The position numbers and the translations under genes are program-made. From IMG/VR virus record IMGVR_UViG_3300032167_000022: DNA of 32,771 nt. One strand, written 5' to 3'. Below, piece after piece: positions 9 through 9,305 of the stretch. Origin of the DNA: a virus. Every line of letters starts with the position of its first letter. Positions within the stretch are counted from its first letter, which is position 1. The notes below the pieces were generated by a model. The model searched no databases, was not told where the DNA came from, and was given only the letters and a program-made list of their open reading frames with translations.

Positions 9-68
<60 letters not shown>

Positions 69-339: not shown

Positions 340-368
340 ATTATACCACACTTTTGCGTATTTGTCAA
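340..368 (-). promoter_or_regulatory. early promoter P1: TTGACA, 17-nt spacer, TGgTATAAT (extended -10) on the minus strand
   Basis: tgtcaa at 363-368 and attata at 340-345 on the plus strand give TTGACA and TATAAT in reverse complement. The spacer is exactly 17 nt with TGg before the -10. There is an AT-rich UP-like region upstream. Confidence 0.7.
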
Positions 369-400
369 TACCTTTTTGAAAATTTATTTATGAATTTTTT

Positions 401-434
401 GTTAAGAAAAAAAGCTGTTTATAAAACAGCTTTT
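401..434 (-). terminator. rho-independent terminator (possibly bidirectional) for gene 631..419
   Basis: Stem aagctgtt/aacagctt with a 5-nt loop, followed by TTTTTTTCTT on the minus strand. The stop codon of the gene lies inside the hairpin. Confidence 0.55.
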
Positions 435-631
435 AATCTATAACAACAAATTCCATCTTCATTTTTTCTTTCAACTGCGTTATGCTTTTCCAAATGCCAC
501 AGGAAATCATTAACAATACCAACATCACTAAAGAATGTTGTACATCTTGCGATAAGATACATTTTTGACTTCCATTCATAAGACAATTCTTCTGCTACCT
601 TTGCCATAATTTCACTCATGCGATTTTCCAT
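419..631 (-). CDS. early hypothetical protein (70 aa), stop TAA
   Basis: ORF behind P2 with RBS agaaagaggtaaacaaaATG. Confidence 0.55.
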   Translation of the reverse strand: MENRMSEIMAKVAEELSYEWKSKMYLIARCTTFFSDVGIVNDFLWHLEKHNAVERKNEDGICCYRLKAVL

Positions 632-689
632 TTTGTTTACCTCTTTCTACCGTTCTTTTGGGCTTCCGGTTTTCCTCTTGTCTATATAT

Positions 690-718
690 ATTATACCATA
701 CTTTTACGCATTTGTCAA
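690..718 (-). promoter_or_regulatory. early promoter P2 (TTGACA-17-TGgTATAAT)
   Basis: tgtcaa at 713-718, attata at 690-695, spacer 17 nt. It is near-identical to P1. Confidence 0.7.
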
Positions 719-735
719 TAGGTTTTTGAAAATTT

Positions 736-775
736 CTTAAAAAAATTTTGAGAGGGTTTTCGGGAACCCTCTCGC
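736..775 (-). terminator. hairpin gagagggtt-ttcggg-aaccctctc downstream of gene 1102..785
   Basis: 9-bp stem with a 6-nt loop. The minus-strand tail is AAAATTTTTTT. The stem is related to the hairpin at 47-68. Confidence 0.4.
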
Positions 776-784
776 TTTAATTAA

Positions 785-1102
785 CTAAAATGTTGCTTCG
801 TTCTGTAAAATGTGCCTGCGCTTTTGTATATTCTTTTTGATTACGTTTGATAACCATTGCGGCGTATTGTTGTAAGTCACATAATTAGCCTGCTTATATT
901 CTGCTATGTACATTGTGATTATCATGCCTTCTTCGTCCTTGACTATCAGAACGCCTGTGTCTGTCAAGCAAGATACTGTCGGTGTGGTGGATGAATGGCG
1001 TTTAAATACGATGTTGCCATATCCAATAGTAGTGGCGATGTAAGCCACGCGGTCAAGGCGGTCTGCGCGCAGATGGTGGGAGATGTTTACTCTTTCAGTC
1101 AT
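785..1102 (-). CDS. early hypothetical protein (105 aa); the stop codon is TAG
   Basis: The ORF track extends to 1180, but its first 26 residues are translated promoter/UTR (CGIIYTE is tgtggtataatatatacag). The real start is the ATG at 1102, preceded by aaagaggtaaataaaATG. The stop at 785-787 is TAG, followed by ttaattaa. Confidence 0.55.
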   Translation of the reverse strand: MTERVNISHHLRADRLDRVAYIATTIGYGNIVFKRHSSTTPTVSCLTDTGVLIVKDEEGMIITMYIAEYKQANYVTYNNTPQWLSNVIKKNIQKRRHILQNEATF

Positions 1103-1151
1103 TTTATTTACCTCTTTCTTTTGGAAGGTGTGTTGTTTTCTTTCTGTATAT

Positions 1152-1180
1152 ATTATACCACATTTTTGTGTATTTGTCAA
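1152..1180 (-). promoter_or_regulatory. early promoter P3 (TTGACA-17-TGgTATAAT)
   Basis: tgtcaa at 1175-1180, attata at 1152-1157, spacer 17 nt. Confidence 0.7.
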
Positions 1181-1204
1181 TAGTTTTTTGAAAATTTATT
1201 TATG

Positions 1205-1244
1205 AACTTTTTGTAAACAAAAGGTACTGCTTTTCAGCAGTACC
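1205..1244 (-). terminator. rho-independent terminator for gene 1491..1234
   Basis: Stem ggtactgc/gcagtacc, then TTTTGTTTAC on the minus strand. The TGA stop of the gene sits in the loop. Confidence 0.6.
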
Positions 1245-1491
1245 CGCGTCTCATGATTTTCCTTTTTTCTGTTCCGATTATGCGGCAAGCTAACCGCACT
1301 GCGTGCCTGCGCTGGATTCTGATGCTTGCGCTTACCTCTTTGTCGTGCATCCAGTTGTCAAGGGCATCGCGCAATTCCATACGCTTATCTACCAATCTTC
1401 CCCAAATTTCATCATATCTTTCGTCGTAGGGGATGCGGTCAAGCGCATTGTTAATAAGGGTGATTCGGGTGATAGTGTTGATGATTTTCAT
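1234..1491 (-). CDS. early hypothetical protein (85 aa), stop TGA
   Basis: The real start is the ATG at 1491 (cat at 1489-1491 on the plus strand) after the conserved UTR with GAGG RBS. The upstream part of the track ORF is translated promoter. Confidence 0.55.
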   Translation of the reverse strand: MKIINTITRITLINNALDRIPYDERYDEIWGRLVDKRMELRDALDNWMHDKEVSASIRIQRRHAVRLACRIIGTEKRKIMRRGYC

Positions 1492-1551
1492 TGTTTTATC
1501 TCTCTTTCTTTTGGAGGGTGGCTCATTGACTCTCTCCCTCTCTCTGTATAT

Positions 1552-1580
1552 ATTATACCACATTTTAATAGATTTGTCAA
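1552..1580 (-). promoter_or_regulatory. early promoter P4 (TTGACA-17-TGgTATAAT)
   Basis: tgtcaa at 1575-1580, attata at 1552-1557, spacer 17 nt. Confidence 0.7.
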
Positions 1581-1671
1581 GGGGTTTTTTAAACTTTTTT
1601 CAAGAAATTTTCTTGGGGAAAAGCACCTGCGCATTTGGGAGTTTACTAACCCTTTCCCCCTTGACATATAT

Positions 1672-1700
1672 ATTATACCATACTTTGATTGAAAAGTCAA
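1672..1700 (-). promoter_or_regulatory. early promoter P5 (TTGACT-17-TGgTATAAT), in tandem about 120 bp upstream of P4 with no gene between
   Basis: agtcaa at 1695-1700, attata at 1672-1677, spacer 17 nt. Only about 80 nt of non-coding sequence separate it from P4. Confidence 0.6.
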
Positions 1701-1882
1701 TAGGTTTTTGAAAATTTATTTGTAAACAAAATATGAACTAATTTCGGGATACTGCTACCGAACAAATGTTTGTGCCTTACTTTAACAATTTATCACTTTA
1801 CCATACTAAAGCGCGAATTCGGGCCCCCACTACACCTGTCGTATGGAACGGATTGTTAAAACTTTAACAAGCGCATCCAGTA

Positions 1883-1913
1883 GACAAAAGAAAGATGGAG
1901 ATTACTCTCCATC
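1883..1913 (-). terminator. rho-independent terminator for gene 2060..1902
   Basis: Stem gatggaga/tctccatc with a 4-nt loop, followed by TTTCTTTTGTC on the minus strand. The TAA stop is in the loop. Confidence 0.6.
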
Positions 1914-2060
1914 TGTCAGATTCATTGCTATTACGAACATGTTCCAGTCTGCGTGCTGTGGTTCGCTCGTGTTGTTGTCTGCGATAATGTCAAGGTAGCT
2001 TACACCTGCCCAAATAGCAAGGGCGATTAAAATGGCGTTGATGGCTTTAAGAATTTTCAT
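1902..2060 (-). CDS. early small membrane/secreted peptide (52 aa: MKILKAINAILIALAIWAGVSYL...)
   Basis: ATG at 2060 after the conserved UTR. It has a hydrophobic N-terminal segment. The upstream part of the track ORF is translated promoter. Confidence 0.5.
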   Translation of the reverse strand: MKILKAINAILIALAIWAGVSYLDIIADNNTSEPQHADWNMFVIAMNLTDGE

Positions 2061-2118
2061 TGTCTTTGTATCCTTTCTTTGAGAGGGTTTGTTTTTTCTT
2101 TTCCCTTTCTCTATATAT

Positions 2119-2147
2119 ATTATATCATATTTTAATAGATTTGTCAA
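2119..2147 (-). promoter_or_regulatory. early promoter P6 (TTGACA-17-TGaTATAAT)
   Basis: tgtcaa at 2142-2147, attata at 2119-2124 with tca after it, spacer 17 nt. Confidence 0.7.
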
Positions 2148-2204
2148 TAGTTTTTCTTCAATTTAATTGTAAACGATTTATTAACATCGTTAAAACTTTA
2201 ACAA

Positions 2205-2245
2205 GCGCAGGCATTAGATAAGCAAGCATTTGTGATGCTTGCTTA
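2205..2245 (-). terminator. long imperfect hairpin (about 14 bp) downstream of gene 2473..2252
   Basis: tagataagcaagcat-ttgtg-atgcttgcttaatcta. There is no clear T tract on the minus strand. Confidence 0.35.
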
Positions 2246-2251
2246 ATCTAT

Positions 2252-2473
2252 TCACGCGAGACAAGCGTACAGAGTGAACTTCCTTTCTTCTACTTTGATG
2301 ATGCCTTCATCAGCCATCTCGCGCAGTACGTCAATCACGCGCAGACCATCGCCATTATAGCCCTTGATACCTGCTCTTGCCATAATGGTGTAGTAGGGAA
2401 GCCATTCAGCCATTACCGCATTTCTATTCTGAATCTTGTTTCTAATGTTCATCTTGCTTACGTTGATACCCAT
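2252..2473 (-). CDS. early hypothetical protein (73 aa), stop TGA
   Basis: ATG at 2473 (cat at 2471-2473) preceded by aagaaagaggtaacacaaATG. Confidence 0.55.
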   Translation of the reverse strand: MGINVSKMNIRNKIQNRNAVMAEWLPYYTIMARAGIKGYNGDGLRVIDVLREMADEGIIKVEERKFTLYACLA

Positions 2474-2546
2474 TTGTGTTACCTCTTTCTTTTGGTTGTT
2501 TTTGTTTTGTGCGCTCTCTGTCGCGCTCTTGTTTCTTTCTGTATAT

Positions 2547-2575
2547 ATTATACCACATTTTTGTGCATTTGTCAA
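2547..2575 (-). promoter_or_regulatory. early promoter P7 (TTGACA-17-TGgTATAAT)
   Basis: tgtcaa at 2570-2575, attata at 2547-2552, spacer 17 nt. Confidence 0.7.
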
Positions 2576-2660
2576 TAGGTTTTCGCAATATTTTTTTATT
2601 AACTTTTTATGAACATCGTTAAAACTTTAACAAACTCATACCACTGGACTACCAACAGCA

Positions 2661-2695
2661 GACAAAGAAAAGATGTGAGGTTTTACCCTCACATC
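2661..2695 (-). terminator. rho-independent terminator for gene 2859..2689
   Basis: Stem gatgtgagg/cctcacatc with a 6-nt loop, followed by TTTTCTTTGTC on the minus strand. The TGA stop is inside the hairpin. Confidence 0.6.
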
Positions 2696-2859
2696 CATCC
2701 AAGCTCTGCGCTTACTTCATTGAACTGCTCTTCATTGACATCGTACTCTACGTACTTTCTGCCATTCTCTTCGTAGAAGAAGAAGTTGCGCATCTCTACT
2801 CTGCCGCTTTCATAAATTTCATTAAACCACGCTTCACTCGTTGCTACTGTAATCATCAT
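2689..2859 (-). CDS. early hypothetical protein (56 aa, MMITVATSEAWFNEIYESGRVEMRNFFFYEENGRKYVEYDVNEEQFNEVSAELGWM)
   Basis: ATG ATG at 2859-2854 after the conserved UTR. The track ORF start at 2937 is translated promoter. Confidence 0.5.
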   Translation of the reverse strand: MMITVATSEAWFNEIYESGRVEMRNFFFYEENGRKYVEYDVNEEQFNEVSAELGWM

Positions 2860-2919
2860 TTTTTTAATCTCTCTTTCTGCCTTTCTTTTGGGCTTCAGGC
2901 TTTCCTCTGTTCTGTATAT

Positions 2920-2948
2920 ATTATACCACACTTTCATGGATTTGTCAA
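2920..2948 (-). promoter_or_regulatory. early promoter P8 (TTGACA-17-TGgTATAAT)
   Basis: tgtcaa at 2943-2948, attata at 2920-2925, spacer 17 nt. Confidence 0.7.
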
Positions 2949-3038
2949 GGGGTTTCGCAAAATTTTTTTATATTTTTTTTGTAAACAGATTATGAACATT
3001 GTTAAAAACTTAACTTACAAAGTTGGGAGAACTTTGCA

Positions 3039-3227
3039 CTTTAGTATGGTAAAGCGTTAATACATCGTTAAATCTTTAACAATCTCGCTGCCACCAAGCT
3101 CTACAAATGTATGTTAATTTTTTAACAATCTCGCTGCCGCAGCTCTACAAATGTATGTCAATCCAATTGCAGAGATTCGCTGAACTATGCAAATACTTTA
3201 ACGCTTTAGCACTTTACCATACTAAAG
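3039..3227. repeat. structured non-coding element: an inverted repeat (cactttagtatggtaaagcg at 3039-3058 and ctttaccatactaaagt at 3211-3227) flanking two tandem copies of about 40 bp (3076-3115 and 3121-3158)
   Basis: Direct reading shows an IR arm of 17-20 nt and near-identical direct repeats tttaacaatctcgctgcc..gctctacaaatgtatgt. A third copy of the arm (ctttaccatactaaag) sits at 1796-1811. Confidence 0.6.
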
Positions 3228-3269
3228 TATTCGCTACATTAGAGCGAGAGGGTTTGTACATAGTTTGTT

Positions 3270-3405
3270 AATAGTTTATTCACAATTAAATGTTAACAAA
3301 TTATTTACAATTTGTTCATAATTTGTTCACAATTATAGGAAATAAATTGTTAACAGTTTGTTCACAATTTGTTCATAAAAAATTTACAAATTGTTTACAA
3401 TTGCG
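3270..3405. repeat. iteron cluster: TTCACAATT three times, TGTTCATAA twice, TTTACAA(A)TT three times and TTGTTAACA twice; candidate replication origin or multi-site operator
   Basis: Short AT-rich direct repeats counted in a 135-bp non-coding stretch with no ORF. Confidence 0.5.
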
Positions 3406-3437
3406 AAAAACGGCTCGCTTCAGCCGCCAGCGAGCCG
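3401..3437 (-). terminator. rho-independent terminator ending the 4860-to-3648 minus-strand operon
   Basis: GC-rich 9-bp stem cggctcgct/agcgagccg with a 9-nt loop, followed by TTTTTCGCAA on the minus strand. Confidence 0.65.
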
Positions 3438-3576
3438 AGGAATGACAGGGTGCGATTATAGGGTTGCGCGTAGTCCTGGAAAAATCCGACAATAGGTTTT
3501 GTATAGTAGAGGGGGGTGGTTTTCGTGAAAAATTTTTTTTGAATTTGATAAAATGATTTGGTCTGGACAAAAATCC

Positions 3577-3650
3577 CCTAAAGTCATTTTTTAATTTCAA
3601 ATTACGAGAAACCCTAAAGTCATTTTGTAATTTCAAATCACGAAAAATCA
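3577..3650. repeat. two tandem 36-bp direct repeats (ccctaaagtcatttt.taatttcaaat.acga.aaa)
   Basis: Direct reading. These repeats are what generate the spurious 92-aa ORF 3373..3651 (LKLQNDFRVSRNLKLKNDFRGF). Confidence 0.6.
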
Positions 3651-3782
3651 ATCCTTCTTCTTCCTATTACGTTTAGGTTTTTCTCCCCAAATAGCCTCAT
3701 AAATTAAACTTGTACCTTTATTAGTAGCTTTCTGTCTTCTACTTTTTGCCATACTTCCCAAAATTCCACTCGGTTTTTTCAT
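3648..3782 (-). CDS. small, very basic protein (44 aa: MKKPSGILGSMAKSRRQKATNKGTSLIYEAIWGEKPKRNRKKKD), translationally coupled
   Basis: Its ATG overlaps the TAA of the upstream gene (TAAAATG), and GGAGG lies 8 nt upstream. The ORF track does not list it because it is under 60 aa. Confidence 0.35.
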   Translation of the reverse strand: MKKPSGILGSMAKSRRQKATNKGTSLIYEAIWGEKPKRNRKKKD

Positions 3783-3783
3783 T

Positions 3784-4218
3784 TTAATTCCTCCATCCAC
3801 AACATCCTTCCGTACCGCAAGCGTCGCATTGCGCTTCTACTTCACTTTTACAAGGTCTCCAATCTTCCACAGATTTCTTTGCGCTTTCTTCTTTCATATA
3901 TTTATCCCTATACTCAACAAATTCATCCCAGCCGCATTCATTAAAAATTTTAGTTGCTATAAATAATTCCCGCATACTATTATAAAAATGATATTCCTCC
4001 GGAGGAGGTTTAATTTCATTAGTCCTTACAAGTTTCCATCCTTTTACTTTCTTTCCAAATAATTCAGTTTCTGTTTCAACACCTTTAAACTCTTTATAAC
4101 TATAAGGATTTTTAATTCCATTAGCTTGCGCGTACTCATTAAATTCCATTTCATAAATAAGTATTGCCGCACTCACACCACTTATAACAATAGGTTCGTT
4201 AAAATCTGTCATCATCAT
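3784..4218 (-). CDS. early hypothetical protein (144 aa) with a C-terminal Cys cluster (CKSEVEAQCDACGTEGCCGW)
   Basis: Complete ORF with a TAA stop, in an operon behind P9. Confidence 0.55.
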   Translation of the reverse strand: MMMTDFNEPIVISGVSAAILIYEMEFNEYAQANGIKNPYSYKEFKGVETETELFGKKVKGWKLVRTNEIKPPPEEYHFYNSMRELFIATKIFNECGWDEFVEYRDKYMKEESAKKSVEDWRPCKSEVEAQCDACGTEGCCGWRN

Positions 4219-4249
4219 CCCATCCTTCCGGCATAAAAATATCTAAAAT

Positions 4250-4342
4250 CTATACTAACAAATTATTAAAAACTAAAATGGGGCCGCCCAGTATAAAGAC
4301 CGCATAAATAGCCCATTTAGCTCCTTCATTTTCAATCTTCAT
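4250..4342 (-). CDS. possible small hydrophobic peptide (30 aa, MKIENEGAKWAIYAVFILGGPILVFNNLLV) in a 187-nt intergenic gap; stop is TAG
   Basis: ATG at 4342 with a weak RBS. Support is only the ORF and the unusually long gap. Confidence 0.2.
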   Translation of the reverse strand: MKIENEGAKWAIYAVFILGGPILVFNNLLV

Positions 4343-4404: not shown

Positions 4405-4797
4405 TTAAAGCTCCCACACGAATGTACCATCCTTTAATTTATAAACATTAGCATGTAAGTTAATAGCTTCTCCACCTTCAAAATCATATTCTTTTAAATT
4501 CTTTTCTTCCAAAACTTCTTTTAATACTAAACTATCTTTTGGTAAACATAATGTAACTCCAATAACATTATGGTCATCATACATAGAAGTATCAACTATA
4601 TTATATTGCGCTTTTTCATTAATAACATTTACTGAAGTTACTAAAGTAACATCATTATATTCTTCAACAATTAATTTTTTCATTCTATCTCTTAATGAGC
4701 GTGAGCTATCTTTTCTTTCAATAACAGCAATAATAATTGTTACAATTATCATACCCGCAGTTACAATTCCCAATAATAATAAAGCATCTAAAAACAT
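4405..4797 (-). CDS. early membrane-anchored protein (130 aa; N-terminal TM helix LLLLGIVTAGMIIVTIIIAVI)
   Basis: ORF with RBS ttgaggtgcgcaaATG behind P9. Stop is TAA. Confidence 0.55.
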   Translation of the reverse strand: MFLDALLLLGIVTAGMIIVTIIIAVIERKDSSRSLRDRMKKLIVEEYNDVTLVTSVNVINEKAQYNIVDTSMYDDHNVIGVTLCLPKDSLVLKEVLEEKNLKEYDFEGGEAINLHANVYKLKDGTFVWEL

Positions 4798-4831
4798 TTG
4801 CGCACCTCAATTTTTTTTATTTTCTATATAT

Positions 4832-4860
4832 ATTATATAAAAAATTTTTAAAAAAGTCAA
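4832..4860 (-). promoter_or_regulatory. early promoter P9 (TTGACT-17-TATAAT) for the 4797-to-3648 operon
   Basis: agtcaa at 4855-4860, attata at 4832-4837, spacer 17 nt. Confidence 0.6.
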
Positions 4861-4878
4861 TAAATGCCTTAATGAAAT

Positions 4879-4907
4879 TTGACAAAAGAAAAATTTTATG
4901 GTACAAT
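4879..4907 (+). promoter_or_regulatory. plus-strand promoter (TTGACA-17-TGgTACAAT), divergent from P9 and heading the structural/packaging module
   Basis: TTGACA at 4879-4884, TACAAT at 4902-4907 preceded by tgg, spacer 17 nt. GGAGG and an ATG lie 29 nt downstream. Confidence 0.6.
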
Positions 4908-4935
4908 ATAAGTATAAAATAACTGGAGGTAAAAA

Positions 4936-5994
4936 ATGGTTAAATTAGATTATTCTTTACAAACTCCAGAAGAAAGAGTTAAATTAGTAGAATAGATTTT
5001 AGCCGAGGACCCAAACCCCAGTGAAAAATATTCAGAAGTATTGGCTGACTATTTAATTCTTTGTATGGAGAAACAAGAAAGAAAAGAAAAGAAAATTCTT
5101 ACTGAAAACCGAATGGCGACAGTAAATAAAAGAGAAACTTCTTATGAAGGTCTTGTTTCCCAATTAGAAAATGGCGAAGATGGTATATATAATTTAATGT
5201 CAGATAATAAATAGTAGATTTTTCAACCAAAAGTAACAATAACAAAAAAAGATTTAGAAGAGATTCCTGATTTGCGCCAATTGCGCGACGCCATAGAAAT
5301 CTGGGAGGCAAAACTAAAAACCGCCGAAGGAAAAGATGCTTTTACTATTAAAAAAGCTTTAATTGAATTGCGGAAAGACCAATATATTATTAAAAATGCG
5401 TTCAGATGCCCTGTTGAATTAAATAAGATTACTCGCTCAAAATCTTATATTAAATTAGATGATACAACTTGCGAATTTGATGATGATGGATATCCTATTC
5501 CTTCTGGAATTTCATTAATGAATCCTGAAGTTGTTTCAGCAATTTTATGTAATTATTCAAAATTAAAGCAAGATAGTTGGGATTATTTTGAAGGAGATAC
5601 TTGGTATCTTATGAATGATTTTGACCATTTGAGTAATGTGGCTTTAAAAGAATATCCATTATATGAACGATTAGTTGATTTAAAAATTGATGGACTTTAG
5701 AATGCGGATATCCAAATAAAATTAGAAGAAGAATTTGGAATTAAACATAGTCTAGAATATATATCTAGTTTATGGCGTAATAAAATTCCTAAATTAATTG
5801 CGTCAACTGCGGAAGATGAATTTTTAGATTGGTATTATTTAGAAGTTGAAAAAGGAAAATATAAAAAATGTAGTAGATGCGGACAGATTAAATTAGCTCA
5901 TAATAAATATTTTAGCAAGAATAAAACAAGCCGAGATGGCTTTTACAGTATTTGTAAATGCTGCCGGAATGCTAAAACAAAGAAAGGAGAATAA
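4936..5994 (+). CDS. first gene of the plus-strand module, about 352 aa, 4 in-frame TAG; C-terminal zinc-binding motif CSRCGQIKLAHNKYFSKNKTSRDGFYSICKCC (zinc ribbon or HNH-like?)
   Basis: RBS GGAGG, ATG at 4936. Frame 1 is continuous to the TAA at 5992-5994 if TAG is read as sense; it includes a TAG TAG doublet. The ORF track fragment 5272..5700 is in the same frame. Confidence 0.5.
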
Positions 5995-8948: not shown

Positions 8949-9305
8949 TTGCGGGCATCTCGTGGTGAAATCAAAATAGAAGAAATTTTGACAGAAGCAG
9001 AATTACATTTTAAAATGGAATATATTTTTCCAGATTTAAAAAGTCCAAATGGTCGTCCTTTGAGATTTGATTTTGTTGTTTTTGATGATGATGGAAATAT
9101 TGATTTTATTATTGAATATTAGGGAAAATAGCATTATGAAGCTAGTCAAAAATTTGGTGGTAAAAAAGGTCTTTATCAACAACAATATAATGATAATCAA
9201 AAAAGAAGATTTTGTGCTTTACATGATTTTAAATTAATTGAAATCCCTTATACAGATGAACATCTTATTACTTATGATTATTTAATGCATTTAGCAGGAT
9301 ATTAA
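8949..9305 (+). CDS. DUF559/Vsr-like small endonuclease-fold protein (about 118 aa; RFDFVVFDDDGNIDFIIEY*GK*HY)
   Basis: Frame 0 ORF after RBS aagggggga. I propose a TTG start at 8949; the alternative is the in-frame ATG at about 9012. The motif resembles the DUF559 consensus (lvIEvDG.qH). Confidence 0.45.

What the first reader, a model, noticed from the sequence alone, without database searches (positions are those of the whole stretch)
3039..3405. A non-coding hub between the modules holds an inverted-repeat/direct-repeat element and a dense iteron array; candidate origin of replication or regulatory locus
Within about 370 bp there are two features. First, a 17-20 nt inverted repeat (CTTTACCATACTAAAG core, itself a CTTTA N6 TAAAG palindrome) brackets two 40-bp tandem repeats. 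Second, a 135-bp array of short iterons follows: TTCACAATT three times, TGTTCATAA twice, TTTACAAATT three times, and the palindrome TTGTTAACA twice. No ORF covers any of this. A third copy of the IR arm lies at 1796. Iterons next to AT-rich sequence resemble theta-type or phage origins; alternatively this is a multi-operator switch region.
Basis: seen in the sequence. Interest (0 to 1): 0.6.

Follow-up and report, generated by a model that had tools for sequence, protein, structure and literature searches.

The report
Phage hub of host-regulator binding sites
This non-coding stretch of a gut phage is most likely not a replication origin but a dense cluster of docking sites that look like those of the host bacterium's own gene regulators, which suggests that the phage reads, or soaks up, the host's control proteins.

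Summary
The repeats are real and far beyond chance. The window is part of a roughly 150-190 kb phage that reads TAG as an amino acid in its late genes. Region 3039-3405 lies in a ~700-bp non-coding hub (2949-3647), upstream of a row of leftward early genes that each have a perfect sigma-70-type promoter.

Three site types make up the hub:
- 18-bp palindromes matching the clostridial Rex operator TTGTTAA-N4-TTAACAA. There are six in 1853-3128, and one sits in each 46-bp tandem repeat.
- Eleven head-to-tail heptamers TTHAYAA at 11-bp spacing. The same dimer sits 19-20 nt upstream of the -35 of four early promoters (30 nt at a fifth). In Clostridia genomes and two phi29-like phage contigs it lies exactly 9 nt upstream of a -10 box, which is response-regulator geometry (CssR- or PhoP-like).
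- A 28-bp inverted repeat of unknown binder, present three times.

The 11-bp array is not conserved in 80 relatives; only L033 has a 5-unit copy. Rex-type palindromes are the commonest palindrome in the relatives' early regions. Individual relatives instead carry perfect CIRCE, LexA-like or CodY boxes.

Verdict: a regulatory or decoy hub of host-factor sites. An origin is unlikely. Protein binding has not been tested.

The parts
2920..2948 (-). Consensus early promoter (TTGACA-17-TATAAT with TG). It is the first of nine or ten such promoters that drive the small leftward early genes.
   Evidence: 12/12 match; others at 2575, 2147, 1700, 1580, 1180, 718, 368; sequence
2979..2996 (-). Box dimer TTCATAA-N4-TTTACAA pointing towards promoter 2948, 30 nt upstream of its -35.
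   Evidence: Equivalent dimers at 388-405, 1200-1217, 2167-2184 and 2596-2613 lie 19-20 nt upstream of the -35 of their promoters.
2999..3016 (.). Rex-type palindrome, 2 mismatches (TTGTTAAAAACTTAACTT).
3033..3060 (+). Left arm of the inverted repeat: the 28-bp unit TTTGCACTT-TAGTATGGTA-AAGCGTTAA, itself a loose dyad. Binder unknown.
   Evidence: third copy at 1790-1817 (-)
3067..3162 (+). Two 46-bp tandem repeats. Each carries one Rex-type palindrome (3065-3082 TCGTTAAATCTTTAACAA; 3111-3128 ATGTTAATTTTTTAACAA, 1 mismatch each).
3195..3228 (-). Right arm of the inverted repeat, with three 8-nt words (GGTAAAGT GCTAAAGC GTTAAAGT on the - strand).
   Evidence: period 8, 2.8 copies; similar 'GCTAAAGTGCTAA' words in relatives
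3254..3400 (+). Array of 11 (12 with one degenerate) head-to-tail heptamers TTHAYAA, unit TTTGTTCACAA, 11-bp phasing, in two blocks (3268-3332 and 3350-3400). 81% A+T. No -10 element at the expected 9 nt downstream.
3401..3411 (+). TTGCGAAAAAC, a word also found directly upstream of the -35 of promoters 2575 and 2948. It is conserved after the array in L033.
3404..3437 (-). Hairpin (stems 3411-3419 and 3429-3437) followed by TTTTT on the - strand. Probably the terminator of the leftward operon 4797-3648. L033 has a hairpin of different sequence at the same place.
   Evidence: sequence; L033. The scan tool missed it because the loop is 9 nt.
3510..3575 (+). Family-conserved non-coding element (GGGGGGTG-TATTTCGGGAAAAAATTTTT ... 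TCTGGnCAAAAA), always on the same strand as, and 0.1-2.9 kb (mostly 0.1-1.7 kb) upstream of, the sigma-factor gene.
   Evidence: 14 loci aligned; no consensus RNA structure
3576..3647 (+). Two 36-bp tandem units (CCCTAAAGTCATTTTTTAATTTCAAATTACGAGAAA). The unit sequence is conserved, in 1-3 copies, in relatives.
1853..1870 (.). Perfect Rex-type palindrome TTGTTAAAACTTTAACAA. One-mismatch copies lie at 2187-2204 and 2616-2633, each just after a terminator and abutting the box dimer of the next early promoter.

Best explanation
Region 3039-3405 is the core of a ~700-bp non-coding regulatory hub (2949-3647) in the early region of a lytic, TAG-recoded phage of Clostridia. It is built from clustered protein-binding sites that copy operators of host transcription factors.

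(1) Rex-type palindromes. These 18-bp sites match TTGTTAA-N4-TTAACAA. Three lie in the hub, two of them carried by the 46-bp tandem repeat, and three more lie upstream of other early promoters.

(2) Head-to-tail heptamers. TTHAYAA at 11-bp phasing is the geometry used by OmpR/PhoB-type response regulators, which bind as tandem winged-helix dimers. The closest named boxes are CssR TTTTCACA and B. subtilis PhoP TT(A/T/C)ACA.

(3) A 28-bp inverted repeat whose binder is unknown.

Inferred mechanism:
- Dimers of the response-regulator box placed about 20 nt upstream of the -35 tune the very strong early promoters to the host's state.
- The Rex-type sites next to them tie early transcription to the NADH/NAD+ ratio.
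- The promoter-less 11-unit array and the tandem Rex sites give a high local capacity for these proteins, acting as a reservoir or sink.

Shown here: the sites, their excess over chance, their fixed placement at promoters, and their presence at host promoters and in relatives. Inferred: which proteins bind, and the direction of the effect.
For: Setting:
- Nine 12/12 or 11/12 consensus promoters on the - strand, each ahead of a small orphan gene.
- The + strand block is readable only with TAG as sense, and it starts with a sigma-factor gene.

Rex-type sites:
- 11 matches at up to 2 mismatches against 1.34 expected. All six with the best scores lie in 1853-3128.
- The consensus string is the published clostridial Rex box (PMC9600882, PMC5367854).
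- An unbiased census of perfect 7-mer inverted repeats in the early regions of 50 loci ranks TTGTTAA-N4-TTAACAA first among full sites: 28 sites in 12 loci, none in 518 kb of late regions.
- Relatives carry 3-11 such sites each. L053 and L055 use the TTGTGAA-N4-TTCACAA variant.

Direct repeats:
- Dimer TTHAYAA-N4-TTHAYAA occurs 12 times against 0.24 expected. Five copies on the - strand lie 19, 19, 19, 20 and 30 nt upstream of a -35, all pointing at the promoter.
- 70 of 80 sites examined lie outside long ORFs. 30 of 79 have TANNNT exactly 9 nt downstream (background about 3 per offset), with smaller peaks at 20 and 31 nt.
- The same geometry is seen in phi29-like phage contigs.
- Downstream genes include HtrA-type proteases (3 genomes) and PrsA-type foldases (2 genomes). 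These are the classic CssR targets, and the canonical CssR box is TTTTCACA (PMC6749698).

Family pattern (consensus strings checked):
- L053: two perfect CIRCE elements.
- L008: five LexA-like boxes.
- L048: about 24 CodY-like boxes (up to 2 mismatches), three of them perfect.
Against: - No binding data exist.
- The Rex-type palindrome also contains TGTNA-N6-TNACA, so a CRP/FNR-type factor or a conserved phage protein could be the binder.
- Most Rex-type sites in relatives are not at a fixed distance from a promoter; there is only a small peak at 19-21 nt. Known Rex operators usually overlap core promoters, whereas these lie upstream.
- Host genes downstream of the direct-repeat dimer are diverse (tRNA, unannotated non-coding regions, polA neighbour, VTC domain), so the CssR assignment is weak and PhoP-like or another response regulator is equally possible.
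- The array has no -10 element at the host-type offset (sequence), so it is not itself a promoter of that class.
- The array is not conserved in relatives, so it is dispensable for the family.
- The host of this phage is unknown.
Confidence: 0.55

Rival explanations
1. The sites are operators for phage-encoded DNA-binding proteins, for example small early winged-helix proteins or an early-shutoff repressor. The hub would then be the phage's own early/late switch, and the resemblance to host operators would be coincidental or mimicry.
For: - The Rex-type palindrome is conserved across relatives whose sigma genes are only 60-80% identical, as expected for a conserved phage regulator.
- Other relatives have their own direct-repeat boxes (TATGCAY in L007 and L008), which looks like co-evolving specificity.
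- Operator copies are near-perfect (nine perfect sites in L053), which is typical of phage operators.
- Two small early proteins (419-631, 2252-2473) have helix-plus-hairpin predictions and a faint TrmB hit.
Against: - The direct-repeat dimer is a promoter element of bacterial chromosomes, with fixed spacing to the -10, and also occurs in unrelated phi29-like phage contigs.
- Relatives carry perfect consensus sites of four different well-known host regulators.
- No early protein has a significant DNA-binding domain match, and the structure models are unreliable (pLDDT 54-57).
Confidence: 0.2
2. This is a replication origin. The 11-bp units are iterons for a phage initiator or for DnaA, and the A+T-rich array doubles as the unwinding element.
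For: - Eleven phased direct repeats in 81% A+T DNA.
- Boxes in opposite orientation flank a central element at 2979-2996 and 3268-3400, and similarly in L033.
- 9-mers separated by 2 bp resemble the low-affinity DnaA arrays of oriC (own knowledge).
- TTATTCACA at 3276 fits TTWTNCACA.
- The hub lies near the early/late divergence.
Against: - The array is not conserved in 80 relatives.
- No initiator gene was recognised.
- The boxes recur at five promoters and at host promoters.
- They also occur in phi29-like phage contigs, a phage type that replicates by protein priming from its ends (own knowledge).
- Only one box is within 1 mismatch of a DnaA box, and DnaA boxes are not associated with the host sites.
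- The skew minimum lies at 4500-5000.
- If there is an origin here, the family-conserved element with 36-bp tandem units at 3510-3647 is the better candidate.
Confidence: 0.1
3. The repeats are functionless DNA: remnants of duplicated promoter-upstream modules expanded by slippage.
For: - The array has a 46-bp higher-order period, and the three 28-bp units share an identical spacer. Both are signs of recent duplication.
- The array and the inverted-repeat element are lineage-specific.
Against: - The units keep the functional heptamer and the 11-bp phase while the spacers drift.
- The same site types are enriched only in early regions across the family.
- L033 keeps array, TTGCGAAAA and hairpin in the same order, with compensating changes in the hairpin sequence.
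Confidence: 0.08

Closest known systems
Rex operator (ROP) of Clostridia, TTGTTAANNNNTTAACAA (Ravcheev et al. 2012, as cited in PMC5367854 and PMC9600882)
   Same: Same 18-bp inverted repeat: one perfect and four one-mismatch copies in the window, dozens in relatives, and the TTGTGAA-N4-TTCACAA form in L053 and L055.
   Different: The sites lie in a phage, in clusters and tandem repeats, and mostly upstream of core promoters or far from any promoter. No metabolic target gene is involved. Binding and NADH response are untested.
Direct-repeat sites of OmpR/PhoB-family response regulators (Pho box; B. subtilis PhoP TT(A/T/C)ACA repeats; CssR box TTTTCACA)
   Same: 6-7-bp units head to tail at 11-bp phasing. 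In host genomes the dimer ends 9 nt before the -10 and replaces the -35. HtrA- and PrsA-type genes are among the targets.
   Different: Here there are 11 units in a row with no promoter behind them. At the phage early promoters the dimer sits upstream of an already perfect -35. The exact regulator is not identified.
Host-factor sites in phage regulatory DNA (Spo0A boxes in phi29, LexA boxes in temperate phages, DnaA/IHF sites in lambda and P1)
   Same: A phage uses binding sites of a host regulator to couple its programme to host physiology.
   Different: Those cases involve one regulator and a few sites. This phage family carries arrays of consensus sites, and different members carry sites of different global regulators (Rex, HrcA, LexA, CodY).
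Iteron-type origins (lambda ori, P1 oriR, theta plasmids)
   Same: Phased direct repeats in A+T-rich DNA.
   Different: The units are 11 bp rather than 17-22 bp. There is no adjacent initiator gene. The units are not unique to one locus, and the array is not conserved in relatives.
Transcription-factor decoy arrays (synthetic and chromosomal; PMC7826281, PMC3322331, PMC8599769)
   Same: Many high-affinity sites without a target promoter could titrate a regulator.
   Different: In the searches made here no natural phage-borne example was found. The titration effect is a hypothesis.

Membership tests
Iteron-type replication origin | Several phased direct repeats bound by an initiator, confined to the origin | tested here: not met
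   Repeats are present, but the same boxes occur at five early promoters, in host genomes and in unrelated phage contigs.
Iteron-type replication origin | Initiator or replication genes next to the repeats | tested here: not met
   Neighbours are small orphan early genes and a sigma factor. No replication protein was recognised in the window.
Iteron-type replication origin | Conservation of the element in related genomes | tested here: not met
   The array is absent from 79 of 80 relatives within 10 kb of the sigma gene. L033 has a 5-unit copy elsewhere.
Iteron-type replication origin | Skew minimum or actual initiation at the site | tested here: inconclusive
   The cumulative GC-skew minimum lies at about 4500-5000 and coincides with the switch of gene orientation. 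The window covers only about a fifth of the genome.
Rex operator (ROP) | 18-bp inverted repeat TTGTTAANNNNTTAACAA (or TTGTGAANNNNTTCACAA) | tested here: met
   Sites at 1853 (0 mismatches); 2187, 2616, 3065, 3111 (1 mismatch); 2999 (2 mismatches). 1.34 expected. Consensus taken from the literature.
Rex operator (ROP) | Position overlapping or next to a promoter that it represses | tested here: inconclusive
   Window sites lie about 40-200 nt upstream of the -35. In relatives there is only a small peak at 19-21 nt.
Rex operator (ROP) | Bound by Rex and released by NADH | not testable with these tools
   Needs EMSA or footprinting with host Rex, with and without NADH.
OmpR/PhoB-family response-regulator site | Direct repeats of a 6-7-bp unit at 10-11-bp spacing | tested here: met
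   Eleven heptamers, eight of ten spacings exactly 11. Dimer count is 12 against 0.24 expected.
OmpR/PhoB-family response-regulator site | In host promoters the repeat replaces the -35 and ends about 10 bp before the -10 | tested here: met
   30 of 79 genome sites have TANNNT at exactly 9 nt, with secondary peaks at 20 and 31. The same holds in CS229P2 and L002.
OmpR/PhoB-family response-regulator site | Match to a named box and its regulon (CssR: TTTTCACA, htrA/htrB, putatively prsA) | tested here: inconclusive
   TGTTCACA matches 7 of 8 positions. HtrA-type genes (3 genomes) and PrsA-type genes (2 genomes) lie downstream, but many unrelated genes do too.
DnaA-box cluster | Several 9-mers within 1 mismatch of TTATCCACA | tested here: not met
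   Only 3276 TTATTCACA qualifies. DnaA boxes are not associated with the host sites.
CIRCE (HrcA operator) | TTAGCACTC-N9-GAGTGCTAA | tested here: not met
   No window match at up to 3 mismatches. The 28-bp unit has a 10-nt spacer and about 13 of 18 arm matches (by inspection of the sequence). Perfect CIRCE elements do occur in relative L053.
Structured non-coding RNA | Match to a known family, or covariation-supported structure | tested here: not met
   No Rfam hit in the window. The fold z-score of -4.7 to -4.9 follows from the inverted repeat alone. The 16-mer is absent from all 205 loci fetched by then.

The most novel reading that the evidence does not exclude
This phage family uses its early non-coding hubs as DNA sponges. 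Arrays of consensus operators of host global regulators would multiply with the replicating phage genome and titrate those proteins. The regulators are Rex and a response regulator in this phage, and HrcA, LexA or CodY in relatives. Titration would switch on host chaperone, SOS, nutrient-acquisition and fermentation genes, or blunt the envelope-stress response, without any phage protein.
Probability: 0.25. Interest if true: 0.85.

Novelty: new variant of a known kind. Interest (0 to 1): 0.65.

Why it matters
Phages are known to borrow single host-factor sites, such as LexA boxes and Spo0A boxes. Here a whole family of large, uncultured, TAG-recoded gut phages packs its early non-coding DNA with near-perfect operators of host global regulators, and different members use different regulators.

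If these sites bind the host proteins, they would show which host signals the phages listen to: redox state, envelope or phosphate stress, heat shock, DNA damage, nutrient status. They might also reveal a protein-free way of reprogramming the host by titration.

Both ideas can be tested directly with purified regulators and reporter constructs. The operator type could also help to predict hosts for uncultured phages.

Tried and rejected
- Rfam and tRNA scans of the window found nothing.
- Megablast of the late region against deposited phages found nothing. A distant search of 2600-4300 found only the 38-bp box match to the CS229P phages.
- A search for relatives with the neighbouring 144-aa protein found none. 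The sigma-factor gene worked.
- DnaA-box idea: rejected.
- CIRCE reading of the 28-bp inverted repeat: rejected for the window.
- Structured-RNA reading of the inverted-repeat element and of the conserved element 3510-3647: there is no conservation for the first and no consensus structure for the second.
- Fixed spacing between Rex-type sites and promoters across relatives: only weakly supported.
- Structure prediction and PDB sequence search for two small early proteins as candidate binders: uninformative. No fold search was run because the models were poor.
- Literature search for the exact box sequence returned only primers and unrelated text.
- Literature searches for phage Rex boxes or phage decoy arrays returned nothing relevant.
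- An autocorrelation scan for comparable phased arrays in relatives found none.

Full report
**What the window is**

With the standard code the + strand from about 4900 onward has no ORF longer than 376 aa. Reading TAG as sense gives a continuous block of long genes, one of them 3309 codons. The block contains a PHROG sigma factor, terminase, portal, structural proteins and a homing endonuclease.

The - strand from 1 to about 4800 uses the standard code. It holds small orphan genes with no Pfam or PHROG match. Most of them are preceded by a perfect or near-perfect TTGACA-17-TGnTATAAT promoter, and several are followed by a terminator-like hairpin.

The sigma-factor gene finds 101 relatives in IMG/VR, on contigs of up to about 240 kb (the near-complete ones mostly 140-190 kb). 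The window is therefore the early/late junction of a large, TAG-recoded phage. TAG recoding in gut phages is known (bioRxiv 10.1101/2021.08.26.457843, PMC9523058).

**Checking the observation**

The inverted repeat, the tandem repeat and the short-unit array are all present.
- Inverted repeat: 3038-3060 and 3206-3228, 23 nt, 91% complementary.
- Tandem repeat: 46-bp unit, 2.1 copies, at 3067-3162.
- Array: 11-bp unit, 9.8 copies by TRF; eleven heptamers on the + strand between 3268 and 3400.
- Third copy of the inverted-repeat arm at 1796.

The dimer TTHAYAA-N4-TTHAYAA occurs 12 times against 0.24 expected.

- The tandem unit is 46 bp, not 40.
- TTTACAAATT occurs once in the region, not three times.
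- Three mechanical ORFs overlap the region but have no support.

**Anatomy of the hub**

From right to left, in the direction of early transcription:
1. The leftward operon 4797-3648 ends.
2. A family-conserved element lies at 3510-3647.
3. A hairpin with a T-run lies at 3404-3437.
4. The word TTGCGAAAAAC follows.
5. The 11-unit array lies on the opposite strand.
6. The inverted-repeat-bracketed element follows, with its two tandem repeats.
7. One more palindrome follows.
8. A box dimer lies on the - strand.
9. An A/T-rich stretch precedes promoter 2948.

Three site types recur here and only in the early region.

*Type 1: palindromes.* GTTAAA-NN-TTTAAC extends to TTGTTAA-N4-TTAACAA.
- One site is perfect, four have one mismatch and one has two, all between 1853 and 3128. 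1.34 are expected in the whole window at up to two mismatches.
- Each 46-bp tandem repeat carries one.
- This string is the published Rex-box consensus for Clostridia.

*Type 2: heptamers TTHAYAA.*
- Besides the array, dimers on the - strand lie 19, 19, 19, 20 and 30 nt upstream of the -35 of promoters 368, 1180, 2147, 2575 and 2948.
- At promoters 2147, 2575 and 2948 a palindrome abuts the dimer with a 2-nt gap.

*Type 3: the 28-bp unit.* TTnGCnCTT-TAGTATGGTA-AAGnGnTAA occurs three times. It is absent from all 205 loci fetched up to that point.

**Where else the direct-repeat box occurs**

A 38-bp stretch of the array is 95% identical to an intergenic site of the phi29-like Clostridium symbiosum phages CS229P1-3. 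There, and in a second small phage contig (L002), the boxes end 9 nt before a TATAAT.

The listed hits are mostly Lachnospiraceae, Oscillospiraceae, Ruminococcus and other Clostridia, plus some Bacillaceae.
- 70 of 80 sites examined lie outside long ORFs.
- 30 of 79 have TANNNT exactly 9 nt downstream, against a background of about 3 per offset. Smaller peaks lie at 20 and 31 nt, one and two helical turns further.
- In several Lachnospiraceae, four phased boxes precede the -10.

This is the architecture of promoters activated by OmpR/PhoB-family response regulators: the repeat replaces the -35 and ends about 10 bp before the -10. That description rests on established knowledge of PhoB and PhoP.

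Downstream genes include three HtrA-type proteases and two PrsA-type foldases. The canonical B. subtilis CssR box is TTTTCACA, with a putative site at prsA (PMC6749698). Other targets are unrelated: a tRNA, unannotated non-coding regions, a polA neighbour and a VTC-domain gene. I therefore name the class (response-regulator-type direct repeat, CssR- or PhoP-like) and not the protein. DnaA boxes are not associated with these sites.

**Relatives**

The long array is not conserved.
- No relative has a comparable phased array within 10 kb of the sigma gene.
- L033 has a 5-unit copy followed by TTGCGAAAA and a hairpin of different sequence, next to a leftward promoter with two boxes in the opposite orientation. 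The module exists there, but in another intergenic region.
- L007 and L008 have different direct-repeat boxes.

The palindrome, in contrast, is a family trait.
- Many relatives have 3-11 sites with at most one mismatch, all upstream of the sigma gene. L053 and L055 use TTGTGAA-N4-TTCACAA.
- In a census of all perfect 7-mer inverted repeats, TTGTTAA-N4-TTAACAA ranks first among full sites: 28 sites in 12 loci in 446 kb of early DNA, none in 518 kb of late DNA.
- In some relatives it lies 19-20 nt upstream of the -35, the slot held by the direct-repeat dimer in this window. Overall the distances are broad.

Other relatives carry other host operators in the same kind of hub (consensus strings checked):
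- L053: two perfect CIRCE elements.
- L008: five LexA-like boxes (CGAACGTTTGTTCG).
- L048: about 24 CodY-like boxes (at most 2 mismatches), three of them perfect.

Early against late counts: LexA-like 19 against 1, CodY-like 28 against 9.

**Interpretation**

The skew minimum lies at the point where gene orientation flips and is not informative.

The evidence fits a regulatory hub made of host-type operators. I consider it most likely that host Rex and a host response regulator bind here. The promoter-proximal sites would tune the strong early promoters. The promoter-less array and the tandem Rex sites would act as a local reservoir or sink.

The step from sequence match to protein binding is inference. 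A conserved phage protein, or a CRP/FNR-type factor, could bind the palindromes instead.

The most novel reading that the evidence does not exclude is that these hubs are decoys that titrate host global regulators as the phage DNA replicates. In the searches made here I found no description of such phage arrays.

**Adjacent element**

The stretch 3510-3647 is conserved in sequence and position in at least 14 relatives and shows no consensus RNA structure. It consists of a G-run, the motif TATTTCGGGAAAAAA, the motif TCTGGnCAAAAA, and one to three 36-39-bp tandem units. If this part of the genome holds an origin, or a site for a conserved phage protein, that element is a better candidate than the 11-bp array.

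Noticed in passing
window 4933-32771 (+ strand): The late genes are readable only if TAG is a sense codon: ORFs reach 3309 codons, against a maximum of 376 with the standard code. One 3306-aa ORF has 78 in-frame TAGs. The leftward early genes have none. No suppressor tRNA lies in the window.
   Followed up: partly
window 3510-3647; L007 7209-7293, L014 8843-8941, L079 9792-9889 and others: A non-coding element is conserved in at least 14 relatives, always upstream of and on the same strand as the sigma-factor gene. It consists of a G-run, TATTTCGGGAAAAAATTTTT, TCTGGnCAAAAA, and then 1-3 tandem 36-39-bp units. It has no consensus RNA structure. It could be an origin, a special promoter or an operator set for a conserved phage protein.
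   Followed up: partly
L053 6300-8250; L008 1500-3200; L048 600-3900: Early non-coding hubs of relatives carry arrays of other host-type operators. L053 has two perfect CIRCE elements, nine perfect TTGTGAA-N4-TTCACAA sites and about eight AGTTAGTT-N5-AACTAACT palindromes. L008 has five LexA-like boxes. L048 has about 24 CodY-like boxes, including a 9-bp tandem run.
   Followed up: partly
early regions of 13 relatives (e.g. L079, L045): The second most widespread perfect palindrome in early regions is TTGTGCA-N3-TGCACAA: 14 sites in 13 loci and none in late regions. Its binder is unknown.
   Followed up: no
window 340-2948 (- strand): Seven 12/12 and two 11/12 sigma-70 consensus promoters with extended -10 lie on the - strand, each ahead of a 44-105-aa orphan gene, and several of these genes are followed by a terminator-like hairpin. 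This is an unusually regular early-gene cassette array.
   Followed up: partly
window 1759-1772: A LexA-like box CGAACAAATGTTTG (1 mismatch to CGAAC-N4-GTTCG) lies between the Rex-type site at 1853 and promoter 1700, next to the third copy of the 28-bp unit.
   Followed up: no
L210 8140-8420; L258 3510-3810; L230 10030-10170: Unrelated viral contigs carry about 13-30 tandem units of 10-11 bp (about 30 in L210 and L258, about 13 in L230), TTCATAATAAA or TTCATAATATT. These hold the same heptamer as the window's boxes. It is unclear whether they are the same kind of site or plain satellite DNA.
   Followed up: no
L086, L093, L130, L133, L138, L141, L151 (Lachnospiraceae genomes): A four-box promoter of the same type precedes a conserved non-coding stretch (seen over about 170 nt in L130) containing ...GTAATGTTTTTCATTACACATATAGATAAAT.... 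It ends in a terminator-like hairpin and has no Rfam match. It may be an uncharacterised small RNA under this regulator.
   Followed up: no
window 12-45: A homopolymer run of about 35 T (A on the - strand) lies at the left end of the window, just after the last early gene.
   Followed up: no
window 8949-9305: A small homing/HNH-type endonuclease gene (PHROG 9084, E = 2e-26) is inserted between the terminase and portal genes.
   Followed up: no
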